Shown here one piece after another: positions 39,001 to 45,000 of a stretch of 64,000 nucleotides of DNA. Source of the DNA: Scyliorhinus canicula (lineage: Eukaryota). The number at the start of each line of letters is the position of its first letter. Positions within the stretch are counted from its first letter, which is position 1. Location of the stretch: the NCBI RefSeq assembly GCF_902713615.1, contig NC_052156.1, positions 151,158,804 through 151,222,803 on the forward strand. The letters run 5' to 3'. The position numbers were made by a program.

Positions 39001-42000
39001 CACTTGTCTAGTTCACCATCCAGCATCACAGTCCAAGATAAACCACACTATCTTCATTGATGTACACCCAACAGGTGAAGGTAAGGTAAAAACATTATCA
39101 GCTTCTTCAGTGTATTTTCAGAGTATTTATATGCAAGAGTACAATTTTCTTTTGATACATGGTGGAAGGATTGTGTCACTTGCTATGGGTGAGATAAACC
39201 GATTTTAATGAAAGTCAATCAATGCAAACCCCACACCTCTCCTCTCTTCCCTCACCCCTCCTTCCTCCCACCTCTATTCCCCTTGCCTCTCTTTCCCCCC
39301 CCCCCCCACCTCTTTTGATTGGAAATTATATATGTCAATATGATGAACAGATTGCACAGTCTGAAAACAGACACTGCTGCTAATTTTCACACAAACAAAT
39401 TTCCATTTCCGTCCATTGCTGAAATAGAAACGGAAGCTACATTTCCTGTGGTTTCTACTGCTCTAAGCATCTTGAGCTGAGCAGGTTGCATTTTAGCTTA
39501 TTTGACACCAGGGTCTGGATTTCTTTGTCCAGCCAGAGGTGTGAAAGGTGGGTGGTGGTGATAGCTAATTCCTGTGAGGGACGGCATCTTCATCCTCCTC
39601 AGTGACTGCCTCAGCAGTTGGAGCACAACTGCCATCTACTCCAAACATCTCTGCCACTAACCGGTAAAGGCTACATAGTGCGGCCTGCATCCTATGAATG
39701 GCAGTGCACAGTTGCTGCATGTGTGCTACTGCATATATCTCTCCACGAAGTTGGCCACTCTTCATATGGAAAAACTCATGCACTCCAAGCCTTGAGACAT
39801 GGTGGTGTACAGGAGCTGAATGGACTCCTCCATTCTCAGTCCATGACCTCGGGAAACTCGACATGTGGACGCACACAACCATTGCTGCAGGTTTAAACGG
39901 AGCTTCCTTTTCTTTGGCTTCTGGAAGCCTGCATCTGTGCTCAGTTTTGCAAGGCCATGCCTGTCCTCCATTTTTGCAAGGGTACTGCCCGCAGCTGCCT
40001 CTGCCTCCTCCTGCACACCTGTGACATGTTCATCACAGTGCCACCCTCCCTAAGCATGTGGGAGAACGCACTGAGTTGGCAATACCTGATGGAGATTGCC
40101 ACTATAAGGAGTGATGGTGTTTGCTGTGCTCTGGCAGCACATGGTCCAGTGATGGAACAGGAATCAGTCTTCACAGCTCAATGTCAGAACCTGTGGTAGA
40201 CATGAGACAAGATCATTTCCTAATGCAGCTAAGTTTTCGCATGCTGTCAGTCAAGTAGAGTTTAATGCATTCCAGTTTCTATTCAGCATTACCAACTGAG
40301 TTGCCCATCCTGCCTTCAACACTTGCTTGTGGTCAGTAAATCTGGTGATCGCTATGGTTCGTTCTTTCATACTGGTGGCAATGCGAAGCATGGGTAACTG
40401 TAGAAGACAGGTATTTTAAATACACTTAATATAGGTAAGAAGATTGTTTAAGACAGAAATATTAAATCCCAGTTTTAAAATGAAAGAAATATACAACTTC
40501 CAAACTCAGACATGTGTTTGGGAAAAACAGAACCACTGATAAAAACATCACATTCTTTCAAGGACAGCAGCGAAATCCCATGGGCTGTAAGGTGAGATAA
40601 TTAAAGGCTCCATTGTTCTGATTCAAAAGCCACTTGTGATAACAGCCTGAACCACATTCCATAACGTATGCAAGCCGAAACATTTTAGACTGTGTCAAAA
40701 TACAGTTTCATTTATATTTTCGGAATAATAGCATGATGAGATGACTAACGTCTCAATTGTTGCAGATAAGCAACAATTGGAAGTGGCGTTGCATTGGGAG
40801 GATGGATGGCTTGTTATCAAATCAAATCAAATGTGTTTTGAATATAGCTTAAACCAATTAGGATTATATTGGGGTGTGATCGGATCGCTTAAGACAGATA
40901 TGAAAGAGTATATCCATGGATGATTTGGCCACCATTTTAGACAAGAAGACAGAAAGACAGGAAGACAGAGACAGAGAGAAAGAGACAGGAAAGAGACAAA
41001 GAGAACAAGACAGAGAGAGAGAGAGAAAGTAAAGGAAGAGAATTAGAAAAGAGTTCTGTATTCCTATTTCATTTTCATACTTTGACTTCAGCCTTTGTAT
41101 AAGATACTACACTAGGGAAGGGATTCCCTCAATTATCCATCCTGCCGACTACGCCAAGTGTAGTATCTTTGAATCTGATGAAGTTTTGTTTAATTTACGG
41201 TTGCCGGTTGTTGTTGAGACATTGCTGAAACTCAGTAGAAATTCAAGTTTAAAAACTTGTCAGGTGCAAATAAGAATTGTTTTATTGAAGTTCATTGGTT
41301 ACAACTTGAAAATGATTTAAAAGGTAGTTTGTAGACAATTTGATCTTCTTTAAAGAATCACAGGAATTATCTTCTGAGACAATAGCCTGAACACAACTTT
41401 AAAAGTCAAAGGCTGAAGTCAAAGTATGAAAATGAAATAGGAATACAGAACTCTTTTCTAATTCTCTTCCTTTACTTTCTCTCTCTCTCTCTGTCTTGTT
41501 CTCTTTGTCTCTTTCCTGTCTCTTTCTCTCTGTCTCTGTCTTCCTGTCTTTCTGTCTTCTTGTCTAAAATGGTGGCCAAATCATCCATGGATATACTCTT
41601 TCATATCTGTCTTAAGCGATCCGATCACACCCCAATATAATCCTAATTGGTTTAAGCTATATTCAAAACACATTTGATTTGATTTGATAACAAGCCATCC
41701 ATCCTCCCAATGCAACGCCACTTCCAATTGTTGCTTATCTGCAACAATTGAGACGTTAGTCATCTCATCATGCTATTATTCCGAAAATATAAATGAAACT
41801 GTATTTTGACACAGTCTAAAATGTTTCGGCTTGCATACGTTATGGAATGTGGTTCAGGCTGTTATCACAAGTGGCTTTTGAATCAGAACAATGGAGCCTT
41901 TAATTATCTCACCTTACAGCCCATGGGATTTCGCTGCTGTCCTTGAAAGAATGTGATGTTTTTATCAGTGGTTCTGTTTTTCCCAAACACATGTCTGAGT

Positions 42001-45000
42001 TTGGAAGTTGTATATTTCTTTCATTTTAAAACTGGGATTTAATATTTCTGTCTTAAACAGTCTTCTTACCTATATTAAGTGTATTTAAAATACCTGACTT
42101 CTACAGTAACATTGTGAGCCTGGTTTTCCTGCAATGACAAAAGGGGGAAAGATAAAACCTTGCTGGCCTATATCCAATGCCAAACATTAATATTCCTACG
42201 AGACTGCATGTATCGGTGTTGAAAATACCTCAACATCTCTATGATTCTGAGTCATGTTAAAGAGCAGCATGTGCCCTCGGGCTCCTCCAATCCTGAGAGC
42301 CCAGAGTTGCACTCACCTTGGCCGAGTGAATGTGACTGAATCCCTTCCTGCACTGCATCAGTTCCTTCTGACCACACACATCTTTTAATGATCTCCACCA
42401 TCTCATTCTAGGCCTGCTTGGTTTGGGATGGTTGCCTCCTGCTCTCCTCCAGTAGGAAGACCTGTATTCACTCTCTTTTTGCCCCAAGGAAGGCCTCCCG
42501 GTCAGCAAAAACAAAGCAAGGACAGCCCTGCCTCAGGTTCCAGGCTTCTGCCTTTCTTGCTTCATGTGTACTACGGTTCGTAAATTTCAACAACAAAAGC
42601 ACAGTACTGGCAGCTCTGGTGGGTCTAAATCGGACAAGCTCTCCTCAATCCTGCCTCCTTTCTTCCCACTCCTCCACCATCATGGCCAATAGATTGCTGC
42701 ACAACATGAGCTCCAGATCTCCAGCCAATCAACAGGCGCTTGTGAAAATCAAGGCTTGTGGCTGCTCCCCCCCCCTTACTCAGCACCACTCTGCTGGAAG
42801 GCCCAGGACCTGGAAACAGTCTTGTTGCCCGTGTCCCAACCCTGAAAGAAAAATCTGACCTCGGGTGGAATTAAATCATGTGATGTTAAGGATTTGGCTA
42901 TTAAAGAAAAACTAAAACGTCTTTAGAACCAAATAGGATCTGCAATCGTAGATTAAACAGATCAGATGTGCAGATTAACAATAATAGGTAATAATGAAAT
43001 AATTAGTATTACATAGAAAATGGAGATTAAAGATTAAAGCATCATCATCAGAACAGCTTCTAAGTAAACCAGAAAGAAAAAGGTATTAAATAAAACAGCA
43101 AATGGAAATTTGTTATTAAATAAAAAATCCTGGTGCTATATGTCATCTGTCTAGAGGGTGTTAGACTCAAAAAAAGTAGACAAGGATCAAGCGTAGAAGG
43201 TTATGTTCACAAGCTTTCTTGAAGATCTTAAACAGCCGGGAGAGGAGCTTTTGCTTATCCTTCATTTAAGGAGTCAGCCAAACTTAACTCGGCTTGCAAG
43301 CATAGGAACAGATACACTTTTAGCCATTTTGTACCACACCTCTTTACCCCTCCCATTATTCTGTATCCTTGCCTTTTGCCAACAAATATTCTTTAATCAA
43401 GACCCTCAGAGGTTTACATGATGACGTTATTATTCCAAATCTCGGAGTCCCCTGTGACGTTTAGAATTGATAATAGGGCATATCCCTAGACATTTGCTAG
43501 CCTGAGACTCCTTCATCCTATAAAGGAGGAATTTATAGCTGCCAATCCCCCTGTTGCAGGCTGATGCCAGCAGCCTAGATTCTTGAAGAAACAAAGCCTC
43601 AGTTTTCCTTTATTAGCTATCTTGCTATGAGGATCCAGTCGGTTTTACTTCAGGCCTTGGAAGCTACTTTCAAGACAAAAGATAATATGGAACTGCTCAT
43701 GACTCATAGAATATGGTTTATAATACTGGTGTAGAAAGATTGCAATATACTTAAGGTTATACAGAGTGGGTTCTCAATATAAGTGCATTGGTGGGGAGGG
43801 GGGGCACAGTGGCGTAGTGGTAAGCACTGCTACCTATGGTGCTGAGGACCTGGGTTCGAGCCCGGTTCCGGCTCACTGTCTGTGTGGAGTTTGCACATTC
43901 TCCCCGTGTCTGTGTGGTTTCACCCCACAACCCAAAGCTGTGCAGGTTAGGTGGATTGGCCACGCTAAATTGCCCCTTAATTGGAACAAAGTATTTGGGT
44001 ACTCTAAATTTATAAAAAATATATATAAGTCTATAGCCATAATCACAGTTTATAAAGGTTATACAGAGTGAATACACAATATAAGTGTATGGCAATAGTC
44101 ACAGTTTATAATATGATATTCTAAACCAGTCTTCTTATACTTTTAGTTAATACATTGTGTTAAATAATAATGATATAAAGAATTGTATCATTGCTCACGT
44201 ACTGTTACAAAGTCTATGCTAATACAAAGTTACTTATGTTCTATCACTTAAAATAGGCTGGCATATAATGAGCATTTGTGACTCTGTCACCCACACCCCC
44301 ATGCACCTTCACAGTCCTGTCTTAAATCAATGATTATCACAACCAGCATTTGGTTTTAAAGGAAGTCTTTTTAGCTCCAATCTCTTAAGGGGAGAGAGTA
44401 TGTTCCTGCAGGCACAGTGATTTCTGTTATTGAAGGTGGATACTCATACTGTTATCTTGGATTATATTACTGGCCCACCGAACAGGTGTTCATGAAGCAG
44501 AAGTTAAAGTTTCTGTCGAAAAGGCCATGAGTTATCCCTGAAGGCGAATGGGACAAATGATCACAAGGCAAGAAGTATTGTCAGATGATCCTGCATTATG
44601 TCTGGGATTGCACAGGGCAGATAAGGAGCAAAGCTCTCTAAGCGCTGTCTAGTTTTCATGTAGTGTCCAAGATGGCATCTGTTCTGTTCTGACCAGCCCA
44701 AAATGGAGGAAACCTAGATCCCAAATCCTTCAGTCCCCCCCTTCCAACTCCCATTTGCACCATGGGGGTTGGACCCATTAAACCAGAAGTAAAAGCTCCC
44801 GCTGTACTTTATTGATGTCCTCATCCATGATACAATGGTAGTTGCGTCTTTGTTGCACAGAAAAGTGGCTTATAGAGCGCTTATCGCTTCGTGCACTTGG
44901 CTTTGGGTGCACAGGCAATGGCTCGTGCGACCAATTTCAGCTCATGCGCACTGCAAGGAGGAAGAGTAGTGAAGCCCCTGTCAAGGTCAGAAGGACGTGG

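What the first reader, a model, noticed from the sequence alone, without database searches (positions are those of the whole stretch)
40395..42109. Near-perfect 700-bp inverted repeat inside the C1-TM intron, bounded by a TAA direct repeat
Seen: arms 40398-41097 and 41407-42106 match base for base by eye, even across a GA microsatellite, except for 2 mismatches within ~55 bp of the outer ends. TAA sits immediately outside both ends (40395-40397, 42107-42109). The 309-bp spacer has no long ORF and the arms match no other repeat in the window. Inference: (a) a non-autonomous foldback DNA transposon with very long TIRs and a 3-bp TSD; (b) a recent inverted duplication or one homogenised by gene conversion; (c) assembly artefact. 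If transcribed in the pre-mRNA it would form ~700 bp of dsRNA, a potential ADAR, Dicer or dsRNA-sensor substrate in an immune gene, and a cruciform-prone site.
Basis: partly seen in the sequence, partly recalled or inferred. Interest (0 to 1): 0.65.

Follow-up and report, generated by a model that had tools for sequence, protein, structure and literature searches.

The report
Foldback-type inverted repeat in shark intron
A 1.7-kb stretch made of two almost identical 700-base arms in opposite orientation sits in an intron of a catshark immune-receptor-like gene; it is most likely a non-coding "foldback" type jumping-gene copy, an ordinary kind of thing in a repeat-rich genome.

Summary
Arms 40398-41097 and 41407-42106 are 700 nt each, with 2 substitutions, no indels and a 309-nt spacer. 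TAA lies just outside both ends.

The window is small-spotted catshark DNA, not human. The repeat lies in the 18.6-kb intron between the C1-set exon and the transmembrane exon of a V-C1-TM gene with ITIM-like tail motifs.

My preferred reading (about 0.55) is a non-autonomous DNA transposon with very long terminal inverted repeats, inserted at a TAA target as PIF/Harbinger elements do. Three things support it:
- The TAA flanks.
- A heptamer, AAGACAG, repeated 7 times per arm in one orientation, one copy 7 nt from the tip.
- A second, smaller TAA-flanked inverted repeat in the same window.

The TAA evidence is weak, because TAA is nearly its own reverse complement. No second copy exists in the 64 kb, and no eukaryotic genome collection was available, so copy number and an empty site stay untested.

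A local inverted duplication (about 0.25) and an assembly artefact (about 0.08) remain possible. Both mismatches lie within 47 nt of the tips (P about 0.005 under uniform mutation), which suggests arm-to-arm homogenisation or older short TIRs.

The ~700-bp dsRNA hairpin is predicted by folding only. Interest is low to moderate.

The parts
40395..40397 (.). Left flanking TAA (candidate target-site duplication; part of GTAAC 40394-40398)
40398..41097 (.). Left arm, 700 nt, 35.9% G+C, CpG 8 observed versus 21.8 expected
40938..41043 (.). Purine-rich tract in the left arm with an 8-nt period (AAGACAGR-like) and a (GA)7 run; mirrored at 41461-41566 in the right arm
40404..40410 (+). Outermost copy of the heptamer AAGACAG, 7 nt from the tip. 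Further copies start at 40450, 40891, 40946, 40954, 40962, 41007, all in the same orientation; candidate subterminal binding motif (inference)
41098..41406 (.). Spacer/loop, 309 nt, 33.7% G+C, non-coding. Contains its own 16-nt inverted repeat 41101-41116 / 41154-41169
41407..42106 (.). Right arm, 700 nt, reverse complement of the left arm with 2 substitutions
42107..42109 (.). Right flanking TAA (part of GTAAC 42106-42110)
34496..34882 (+). V-set Ig exon of the host gene (approximate ends; isoforms differ at the 3' end)
38769..39074 (+). C1-set Ig exon of the host gene, phase 1 at both ends, AG acceptor and GT donor present
39075..57645 (+). C1-to-TM intron, 18.6 kb. Holds the inverted repeat, LINE reverse-transcriptase/endonuclease remnants and SINE copies
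57646..57759 (+). Stalk/transmembrane exon of the host gene
63008..63082 (+). First cytoplasmic exon of the host gene. The ITIM-like motifs of the database protein lie beyond the window

Best explanation
A single, non-coding, non-autonomous class II (cut-and-paste) transposon copy of the long-TIR or 'foldback' type, 1709 bp long, inserted at a TAA in an intron of a catshark Ig-superfamily receptor-like gene. Inferred mechanism: a transposase encoded elsewhere bound the termini, possibly through the reiterated AAGACAG motif, cut the element out and pasted it into a TAA, duplicating that triplet. A TAA/TTA 3-bp duplication is the signature of PIF/Harbinger transposases. The 700-nt arms probably did not start as such. 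Either one half of an ancestral short-TIR element was copied in reverse onto the other half (abortive gap repair or template switching), or the arms are kept alike by hairpin-templated correction, which reaches the stem base least often. Either would leave the only differences at the tips. Shown: the anatomy, the flanks, the motif enrichment and the lack of coding capacity. Inferred: mobility, the superfamily, and how the arms stay alike. If the host pre-mRNA is made, the + strand transcript is predicted to fold into a ~700-bp duplex with a 309-nt loop. That is a passive by-product, not a demonstrated function.
For: The repeat ends sharply, with TAA directly outside both ends. Two random trinucleotides of this window agree with P = 0.017-0.019, and TAA has a frequency of about 0.02. 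TTA/TAA duplications are described as characteristic of Harbinger (PMC3014272, passage read) and 'usually TAA' for mPing (PMC2836001, passages read). AAGACAG occurs 7 times per 700-nt arm, always in one orientation, against 6 in the other 62 kb on both strands. Three of the 7 lie outside the simple tract and one lies 7 nt from the tip. There is no coding capacity: the longest frame is 95 aa. The arm frame search found no candidate sharing three 5-residue words among proteins of 34-111 residues, the only lengths searched. The arm/spacer frame search gave 1 weak hit, E 5e-4 over 33 residues. The element is AT-rich and CpG-poor like old repeat DNA. A second inverted repeat in the window (8115-8713) is also flanked by TAA on both sides. 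DNA transposons make up 6% of the catshark genome (PMC11979771, passage). In another shark, Tourist and Harbinger types are the commonest DNA transposons (PMC12498223, passage). Both mismatches lie within 47 nt of the tips, P = 0.0045 under uniform mutation.
Against: No second copy of arm, spacer or terminus exists in the 64-kb window, though that is only a sliver of a 4.2-Gb genome. The duplication is ambiguous: TAA versus its complement TTA differs at one base, so the flanks equally read as 3 of 4 further complementary positions. A 5-bp GTAAC duplication with TG...CA ends fits as well. Harbinger TIRs are given as 14-25 bp, not 700. No transposase or autonomous partner was seen. The catshark paper says DNA transposon activity has been declining recently, which sits uneasily with 99.7% arm identity unless the arms are homogenised. 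The second inverted repeat is unrelated in sequence and built from other repeats, so it supports the class only loosely.
Confidence: 0.55

Rival explanations
1. Local inverted duplication, not a mobile element. During replication or break repair the nascent strand switched template and copied about 700 nt of the intron backwards, then switched back. Ancestral X-A-S-Y became X-A-S-A'-Y. Arm identity reflects recency and/or later arm-to-arm gene conversion.
For: The sequence is single-copy in the window. Identity is near perfect with no indels, even in a microsatellite. Under this model the sharp outer boundary needs no explanation, because the extent of A is defined by A'. The flanks can be read as the repeat running 4 nt further with one mismatch. 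All 3 mismatches of the 704-nt reading lie in the outer 51 nt, P = 3.8e-4, as expected if conversion acts from the loop outward.
Against: The TAA direct repeat on both sides would be a 1-2% coincidence. There is no microhomology at the inner junction 41097/41407 (read). The oriented AAGACAG motif close to the tip would also be coincidence. A second TAA-flanked inverted repeat lies in the same window.
Confidence: 0.25
2. Assembly artefact: a chimeric or fold-back long read, or a mis-join of haplotypes, placed a reverse copy of real sequence into the consensus.
For: The public catshark reference was built from PacBio CLR reads with Falcon-unzip (PMC11979771, methods passage), a read type known (recalled) to yield palindromic reads when a hairpin adapter is missed. 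The two substitutions could be heterozygous sites. I cannot tell which assembly the window comes from.
Against: A missed-adapter read gives arms that abut a short adapter and a palindrome that runs on to the read end (recalled). Here the arms are separated by 309 nt of asymmetric unique sequence. The palindrome stops after 700 nt. The flanks continue the same gene in the correct order and orientation, with V and C1 exons upstream and TM and cytoplasmic exons downstream. There are no N runs in the window. There are no indels between arms; the expectation that CLR consensus errors are mainly indels is recalled, not tested.
Confidence: 0.08
3. Two independent insertions of the same 700-bp repeat in opposite orientation 309 bp apart, like inverted Alu pairs.
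For: Repeat-rich intron. Inverted pairs of SINE copies occur elsewhere in the window.
Against: Each arm taken alone has no matching flanks: left copy TAA...TAT, right copy (reverse-complemented) TTA...ACT. The arms show no terminal inverted repeats at the settings used (seed 8, minimum length 12): the only inverted pairs, 40464-40495/41057-41088 and 40621-40636/40828-40843, are internal. No A-rich tail is visible at the arm ends (read). No third copy exists in 64 kb. 99.7% identity would need two very recent hits of an otherwise unseen family within 1 kb.
Confidence: 0.04

Closest known systems
Tourist-like MITEs and other non-autonomous PIF/Harbinger elements (e.g. mPing)
   Same: Non-coding, bounded by inverted termini, flanked by a 3-bp TAA/TTA duplication. 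This type is reported as the commonest DNA transposon in another shark.
   Different: Harbinger TIRs are given as 14-25 bp; here the arms are 700 nt and make up 82% of the element. No similarity to an autonomous partner could be tested. The flanking bases do not look like the extended PIF target (recalled).
Drosophila Foldback (FB) elements and the FB-like Galileo (P superfamily)
   Same: Very long terminal inverted repeats around a short middle. [quoted passage not shown] Multiple transposase (THAP) binding sites in long TIRs are reported (PMC3688188, search-listing abstract only), comparable in idea to the reiterated AAGACAG here.
   Different: Galileo makes 7-bp duplications. FB arms consist largely of tandem subrepeats (recalled), whereas here only about 105 of 700 nt are tandem. 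Different phylum, and no sequence relation tested.
Inverted-repeat Alu pairs in mammalian introns
   Same: Intronic inverted repeats that fold into long dsRNA in the pre-mRNA. Such intronic dsRNA is tied to ADAR and MDA5 responses (PMC8313407, search-listing abstract only).
   Different: Alu pairs are two separate retroposon insertions of about 300 nt, usually well diverged (recalled). Here there is one unit with 700-nt arms and 699/700 pairs in the predicted fold. No expression or editing data exist for this locus.
Large palindromes kept identical by arm-to-arm gene conversion (sex-chromosome palindromes; recalled)
   Same: Arm identity above 99.7% with a unique spacer, and differences confined to one edge.
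   Different: Those have arms of kilobases to megabases and carry genes. This one is 0.7 kb, non-coding and bounded by a possible target duplication.

Membership tests
Class II TIR transposon, non-autonomous | Terminal inverted repeats at both ends | tested here: met
   698 of 700 positions complementary
Class II TIR transposon, non-autonomous | Target-site duplication directly outside the TIRs | tested here: inconclusive
   TAA on both sides, chance about 0.017-0.019. But GTAAC at both ends is also 4/5 self-complementary, so a direct repeat and an extension of the inverted repeat cannot be told apart
Class II TIR transposon, non-autonomous | Several copies in the genome with different flanks | not testable with these tools
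   0 further copies in the 64-kb window. No eukaryotic DNA collection was on hand
Class II TIR transposon, non-autonomous | Empty site in an allele or orthologue | not testable with these tools
   Orthologous proteins exist in S. torazame, Mustelus, Pristiophorus and Heterodontus, but their genomic DNA could not be fetched
Class II TIR transposon, non-autonomous | No intact transposase gene | tested here: met
   Longest frame 95 aa. No Pfam family for 41033-41317. No credible homologues, within the length limits of each search
PIF/Harbinger-mobilised (Tourist-like) | 3-bp TAA/TTA duplication | tested here: met
   with the ambiguity noted above
PIF/Harbinger-mobilised (Tourist-like) | Short TIRs (14-25 bp) matching those of an autonomous element with a DDE transposase plus a Myb-like ORF1 | not testable with these tools
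   No autonomous element in the window. TIR length here is 700 nt, far outside the range quoted
Drosophila-type Foldback elements | Arms built mainly of tandem subrepeats; 9-bp duplication (recalled) | tested here: not met
   Only 40938-41043 is tandem. The flanking direct repeat is 3-5 bp
Missed-adapter palindromic read artefact | Arms abut a short adapter and the palindrome continues to the end of the read or contig (recalled) | tested here: not met
   309-nt asymmetric spacer. Complementarity ends at 40394/42110 and the gene continues normally
Rfam RNA families (miRNA precursors and others) | Score at or above the family's gathering threshold | tested here: not met
   0 matches in the window at gathering. 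At E up to 1, one match: plant MIR408, 19.3 bits against 64 needed, in the CT-rich tract

The most novel reading that the evidence does not exclude
The arms are kept identical by an active process: hairpin-templated mismatch correction in single-stranded DNA, strongest near the loop. The resulting perfect 690-bp intronic duplex would be used by the host as a hairpin-RNA source (small RNAs, or an ADAR/dsRNA-sensor ligand) expressed together with an inhibitory immune receptor. That would be a vertebrate, outside mammals, with a long endogenous hairpin-RNA locus derived from a transposon.
Probability: 0.05. Interest if true: 0.6.

Novelty: new member of a known kind. Interest (0 to 1): 0.25.

Why it matters
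If it is a transposon copy, it is one more unclassified long-TIR element in a genome that is two-thirds repeats. It is useful for repeat libraries, and as a possible presence/absence marker, but not surprising. Two aspects have some wider interest. First, near-perfect 700-nt inverted repeats are hard for cells to keep. Both differences sit at the tips, which hints at how such arms are homogenised. Second, the host pre-mRNA should carry one of the longest perfect duplexes a vertebrate gene can make. That makes it a convenient natural test substrate for RNA editing and dsRNA handling in cartilaginous fish, if the gene is expressed.

Tried and rejected
Copies in the window: sensitive BLASTN of the element and 2-kb flanks and searches with the terminal 26-mer and the TAA-plus-terminus 12-mer found only the two arms.

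A paralogous intron with an empty site: none. The flanks match only themselves and a SINE family at about 43.8 kb.

Indirect copy count through protein databases:
- The 63-aa arm frame gave no candidate sharing three 5-residue words among proteins of 34-111 residues, the only lengths searched.
- The 95-aa arm/spacer frame gave 1 hit at E 5e-4 over 33 residues of a 2709-aa protein, taken as chance or low complexity.

Rfam: nothing real.

Switch-region idea: the strongly GC-skewed blocks at 22-28 kb and 52-57 kb turned out to carry LINE reverse-transcriptase and endonuclease frames, not immunoglobulin switch repeats. A megablast of 22-29 kb found no long match elsewhere.

TM exon next to the element: a hydrophobic frame at 40300-40416 ending at the left TAA is not the TM exon. 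The database protein places the TM exon at 57646-57759.

Missed-adapter artefact: a 13-nt motif at 41207-41219 reminded me of a sequencing hairpin adapter (recall only, not compared). It is 33-45 nt from the centre of symmetry, and the sequence around it is not symmetric, so I dropped the idea.

Galluhop as a vertebrate long-TIR precedent: the paper read (PMC5556988, passages) describes ordinary MITEs with TA duplications, so I do not cite it as a parallel.

Second inverted repeat as the same family: no similarity beyond an 18-nt simple motif.

Not done:
The V and C1 exons were searched separately.
- The prokaryote-only genome-contig scan, the phage, plasmid and E. coli collections and the structure tools were not used, because they cannot bear on a shark intron.
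- Supplementary tables of PMC11979771 (TE composition, table S3) and of PMC12498223 could not be seen. They may say which DNA-transposon superfamilies the catshark carries.
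Full report
**The observation**

Position i pairs with position 82504-i. From 40398 to 41097 only two positions fail to pair, 40407 and 40444, and there are no indels.
- 40407 is A in the left arm against T in the right arm.
- 40444 is T in the left arm against C in the right arm, which is still a G.U pair in RNA.

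Complementarity collapses at 41098/41406 on the inside and beyond 40394/42110 on the outside. The spacer is 309 nt. It has no symmetry of its own apart from a 16-nt inverted repeat next to the left arm.

It has an 8-nt period and a (GA)7 run, and it is identical in both arms.

TAA lies at 40395-40397 and at 42107-42109. The next-largest inverted repeat within 10 kb anywhere in the window has 199-nt arms, so chance is not an issue.

**A qualification on the TAA**

The 5-mer GTAAC stands at 40394-40398 and again at 42106-42110. Because TAA and its complement TTA differ only in the middle base, the flanks allow several readings:
- a 3-bp direct repeat (TAA) around an element with ends CTGTAG...CTACAG;
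- a 5-bp direct repeat (GTAAC) around TGTAG...CTACA;
- four more positions of the inverted repeat with one mismatch, which is how repeat finder reports it, as 704-nt arms.

Two random trinucleotides of this window agree with probability 0.017-0.019. Something beyond chance is probably there, but the evidence for a target duplication rests in effect on one base.

**Where it lies**

Pfam finds a V-set domain in the frame 34490-34891 and a C1-set domain in 38705-39205, both on the + strand. The C1 exon (38769-39074) has an AG acceptor, a GT donor and phase 1 at both ends.

The C1 exon is 100% identical over 101 residues to an NCBI protein of *Scyliorhinus canicula* named 'tyrosine-protein phosphatase non-receptor type substrate 1-like isoform X2'. 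It is 96% identical to proteins of *S. torazame*, with weaker relatives in three other sharks (6 proteins among 39 candidates).

The window is therefore small-spotted catshark, not human. It contains no N.

Mapping the database protein onto the window places the stalk/TM exon at 57646-57759 and a cytoplasmic exon at 63008-63082. The tail of that protein carries ICYAEL and IVYSTV, which fit the ITIM pattern (pattern recalled). These motifs lie beyond the window.

Among solved structures the C1 exon is closest to CD276/B7-H3, a shark 'UrIg2', shark NAR and SIRP-alpha. The label 'C1-TM intron of an immune-type gene' is thus correct.

The intron is 18.6 kb (39075-57645). It holds LINE reverse-transcriptase and endonuclease frames (46440-48197 +; 53378-55420 -) and SINE copies.

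I searched the exons one at a time and did not search a joined model.

**What the element is made of**

- The arms are 35.9% G+C and the spacer 33.7%, against 46.8% for the window.
- CpG is depleted: 8 observed against 21.8 expected per arm.
- The longest stop-to-stop frame is 95 aa and runs from the left arm into the spacer. It has no Pfam family. A full HMMER pass over 1.84 billion representatives gave only one weak hit, E 5e-4 over 33 residues.
- A 63-aa arm frame found no candidate sharing three 5-residue words among proteins of 34-111 residues, the only lengths searched.
- Rfam gives nothing at gathering thresholds. At E up to 1 it gives one chance-level plant miRNA match in the CT-rich tract.
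- The heptamer AAGACAG occurs 7 times in each arm, always in the same orientation relative to the tip, against 6 in the remaining 62 kb on both strands. Four copies lie in the tandem tract. Three are dispersed, starting at 40404, 40450 and 40891, and the first is 7 nt from the end.

Reiterated, oriented subterminal motifs are what transposase-binding sites look like in long-TIR elements. The Galileo THAP-site paper says as much in its abstract (PMC3688188, search listing only). Here it is an inference.

**Other copies**

There are none in the window, by sensitive BLASTN of the element and its flanks or by terminal-motif searches with mismatches.

The tools offered no eukaryotic genome collection. 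The two decisive tests, genome-wide copy number and an empty site in another shark, could therefore not be run.

**A second inverted repeat**

The whole-window scan turned up a second foldback-like structure. Its arms are 8114-8312 and 8516-8714, 199 nt each, with 6 mismatches spread along the arm and a 203-nt spacer. Read as 8115-8713 it is again flanked by TAA on both sides (8112-8114, 8714-8716), with the same inherent ambiguity.

It is unrelated in sequence to the main element. It is also built from repeated DNA: a diverged third copy of the arm lies at about 6628-6792, and 55 nt of its spacer recur at 7333-7387.

It supports, loosely, the idea that TAA-targeting inverted-repeat elements exist in this genome.

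**Weighing the explanations**

*Transposon insertion.* This accounts for the TAA flanks, the oriented terminal motif, the lack of coding capacity and the second example.
- TTA/TAA duplications are called characteristic of Harbinger (PMC3014272, passage) and usual for mPing (PMC2836001, passages).
- Tourist and Harbinger types are the commonest DNA transposons in the grey reef shark (PMC12498223, passage).
- Against membership in PIF/Harbinger proper, the TIRs quoted for that family are 14-25 bp, and no partner element could be examined.

*Local inverted duplication.* This explains the near identity and the single-copy status equally well. Its sharp outer edge needs no explanation. It leaves the TAA repeat and the motif near the tip as coincidences.

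*Assembly artefact.* The public reference for this species is a PacBio CLR/Falcon-unzip assembly (PMC11979771, methods passage). However, a 309-nt asymmetric spacer, a palindrome that stops after 700 nt, and flanks that continue one gene in the right order do not fit the fold-back read artefact as I recall it.

*Two separate insertions.* This is disfavoured because the arms taken singly have no matching flanks.

**The mismatch pattern**

Both differences lie within 47 nt of the tips. Under uniform mutation that has P = 0.0045. Counting the A/A in the TAA as a third mismatch of 704-nt arms gives P = 3.8e-4. Neither difference is at a CpG. Two readings fit:
- The outer ~50 nt are the older, imperfect TIRs of a short-TIR ancestor, and the inner ~650 nt became inverted later by copying one half onto the other.
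- The arms are corrected against each other in a hairpin that forms from the loop outward, so that the stem base is corrected least.

Both are inferences, and comparison of several copies would distinguish them.

**Consequences**

Folded as RNA in the sense of the host gene, the 1709 nt give -1351 kcal/mol. In that fold 699 of 700 arm positions pair with their mirror partner, and the longest uninterrupted helix is 690 bp. With DNA parameters the energy is -898 kcal/mol.

In mammals, intronic inverted-repeat dsRNA is linked to ADAR and MDA5 (PMC8313407, search-listing abstract only). Whether this intron is transcribed at useful levels, edited or diced in the catshark is unknown, and nothing here tests it.

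Both arms lie in one intron with no exon between them, so there is no obvious effect on the coding sequence.

**Verdict**

This is a real, sharply bounded, near-perfect 700-nt inverted repeat. It is most likely a non-autonomous long-TIR DNA transposon copy with a TAA target (0.55). Otherwise it is a local inverted duplication (0.25).

It is a new member of a known kind and of low to moderate interest. It is worth a genome-wide BLAST and a look at the orthologous intron, which would settle the matter quickly.

Noticed in passing
window 8112-8716: Second foldback-like inverted repeat: arms 8114-8312 / 8516-8714 (199 nt, 6 mismatches spread along the arm), 203-nt spacer. Read as 8115-8713 it is flanked by TAA on both sides. 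The arms resemble a diverged third copy at about 6628-6792, and 55 nt of the spacer recur at 7333-7387 (96%).
   Followed up: partly
window 43790-44050 and about 12 other sites (e.g. 61111-61354, 22059-22281, 31898-32103, 20679-20853): A SINE-like family with at least a dozen copies at 68-91% identity, on both strands, inside and outside the host gene.
   Followed up: no
window 22000-28000 (+) and 52000-57000 (-): Two G+C-rich blocks with strong, opposite GC skew carry LINE reverse-transcriptase and endonuclease frames (25269-25676 +; 53378-53938 -; 54605-55420 -). They are not immunoglobulin switch regions and are not close copies of each other at megablast level.
   Followed up: partly
window 46440-48197: A 586-aa open frame with a reverse-transcriptase domain (E 3.2e-36) in the same intron, on the + strand; possibly a young LINE copy.
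   Followed up: no
window 58240-58460; 20890-21324; 456-611: Tandem repeats: 31 nt x 7.1 at 99% just downstream of the TM exon; 217 nt x 2.0; 42 nt x 3.7.
   Followed up: no
window 40408-40416 and 42092-42106: On the + strand the left tip reads CAG|GTATTT (donor-like) and the right tip ends CTTCTACAG (acceptor-like), so the element's ends resemble splice sites in either orientation. Not tested for use.
   Followed up: no
window 34846-34882: The catshark database protein (isoform X2) leaves the V exon at about 34846, whereas the S. torazame proteins align through 34882, which suggests alternative donor sites at the end of the V exon.
   Followed up: no
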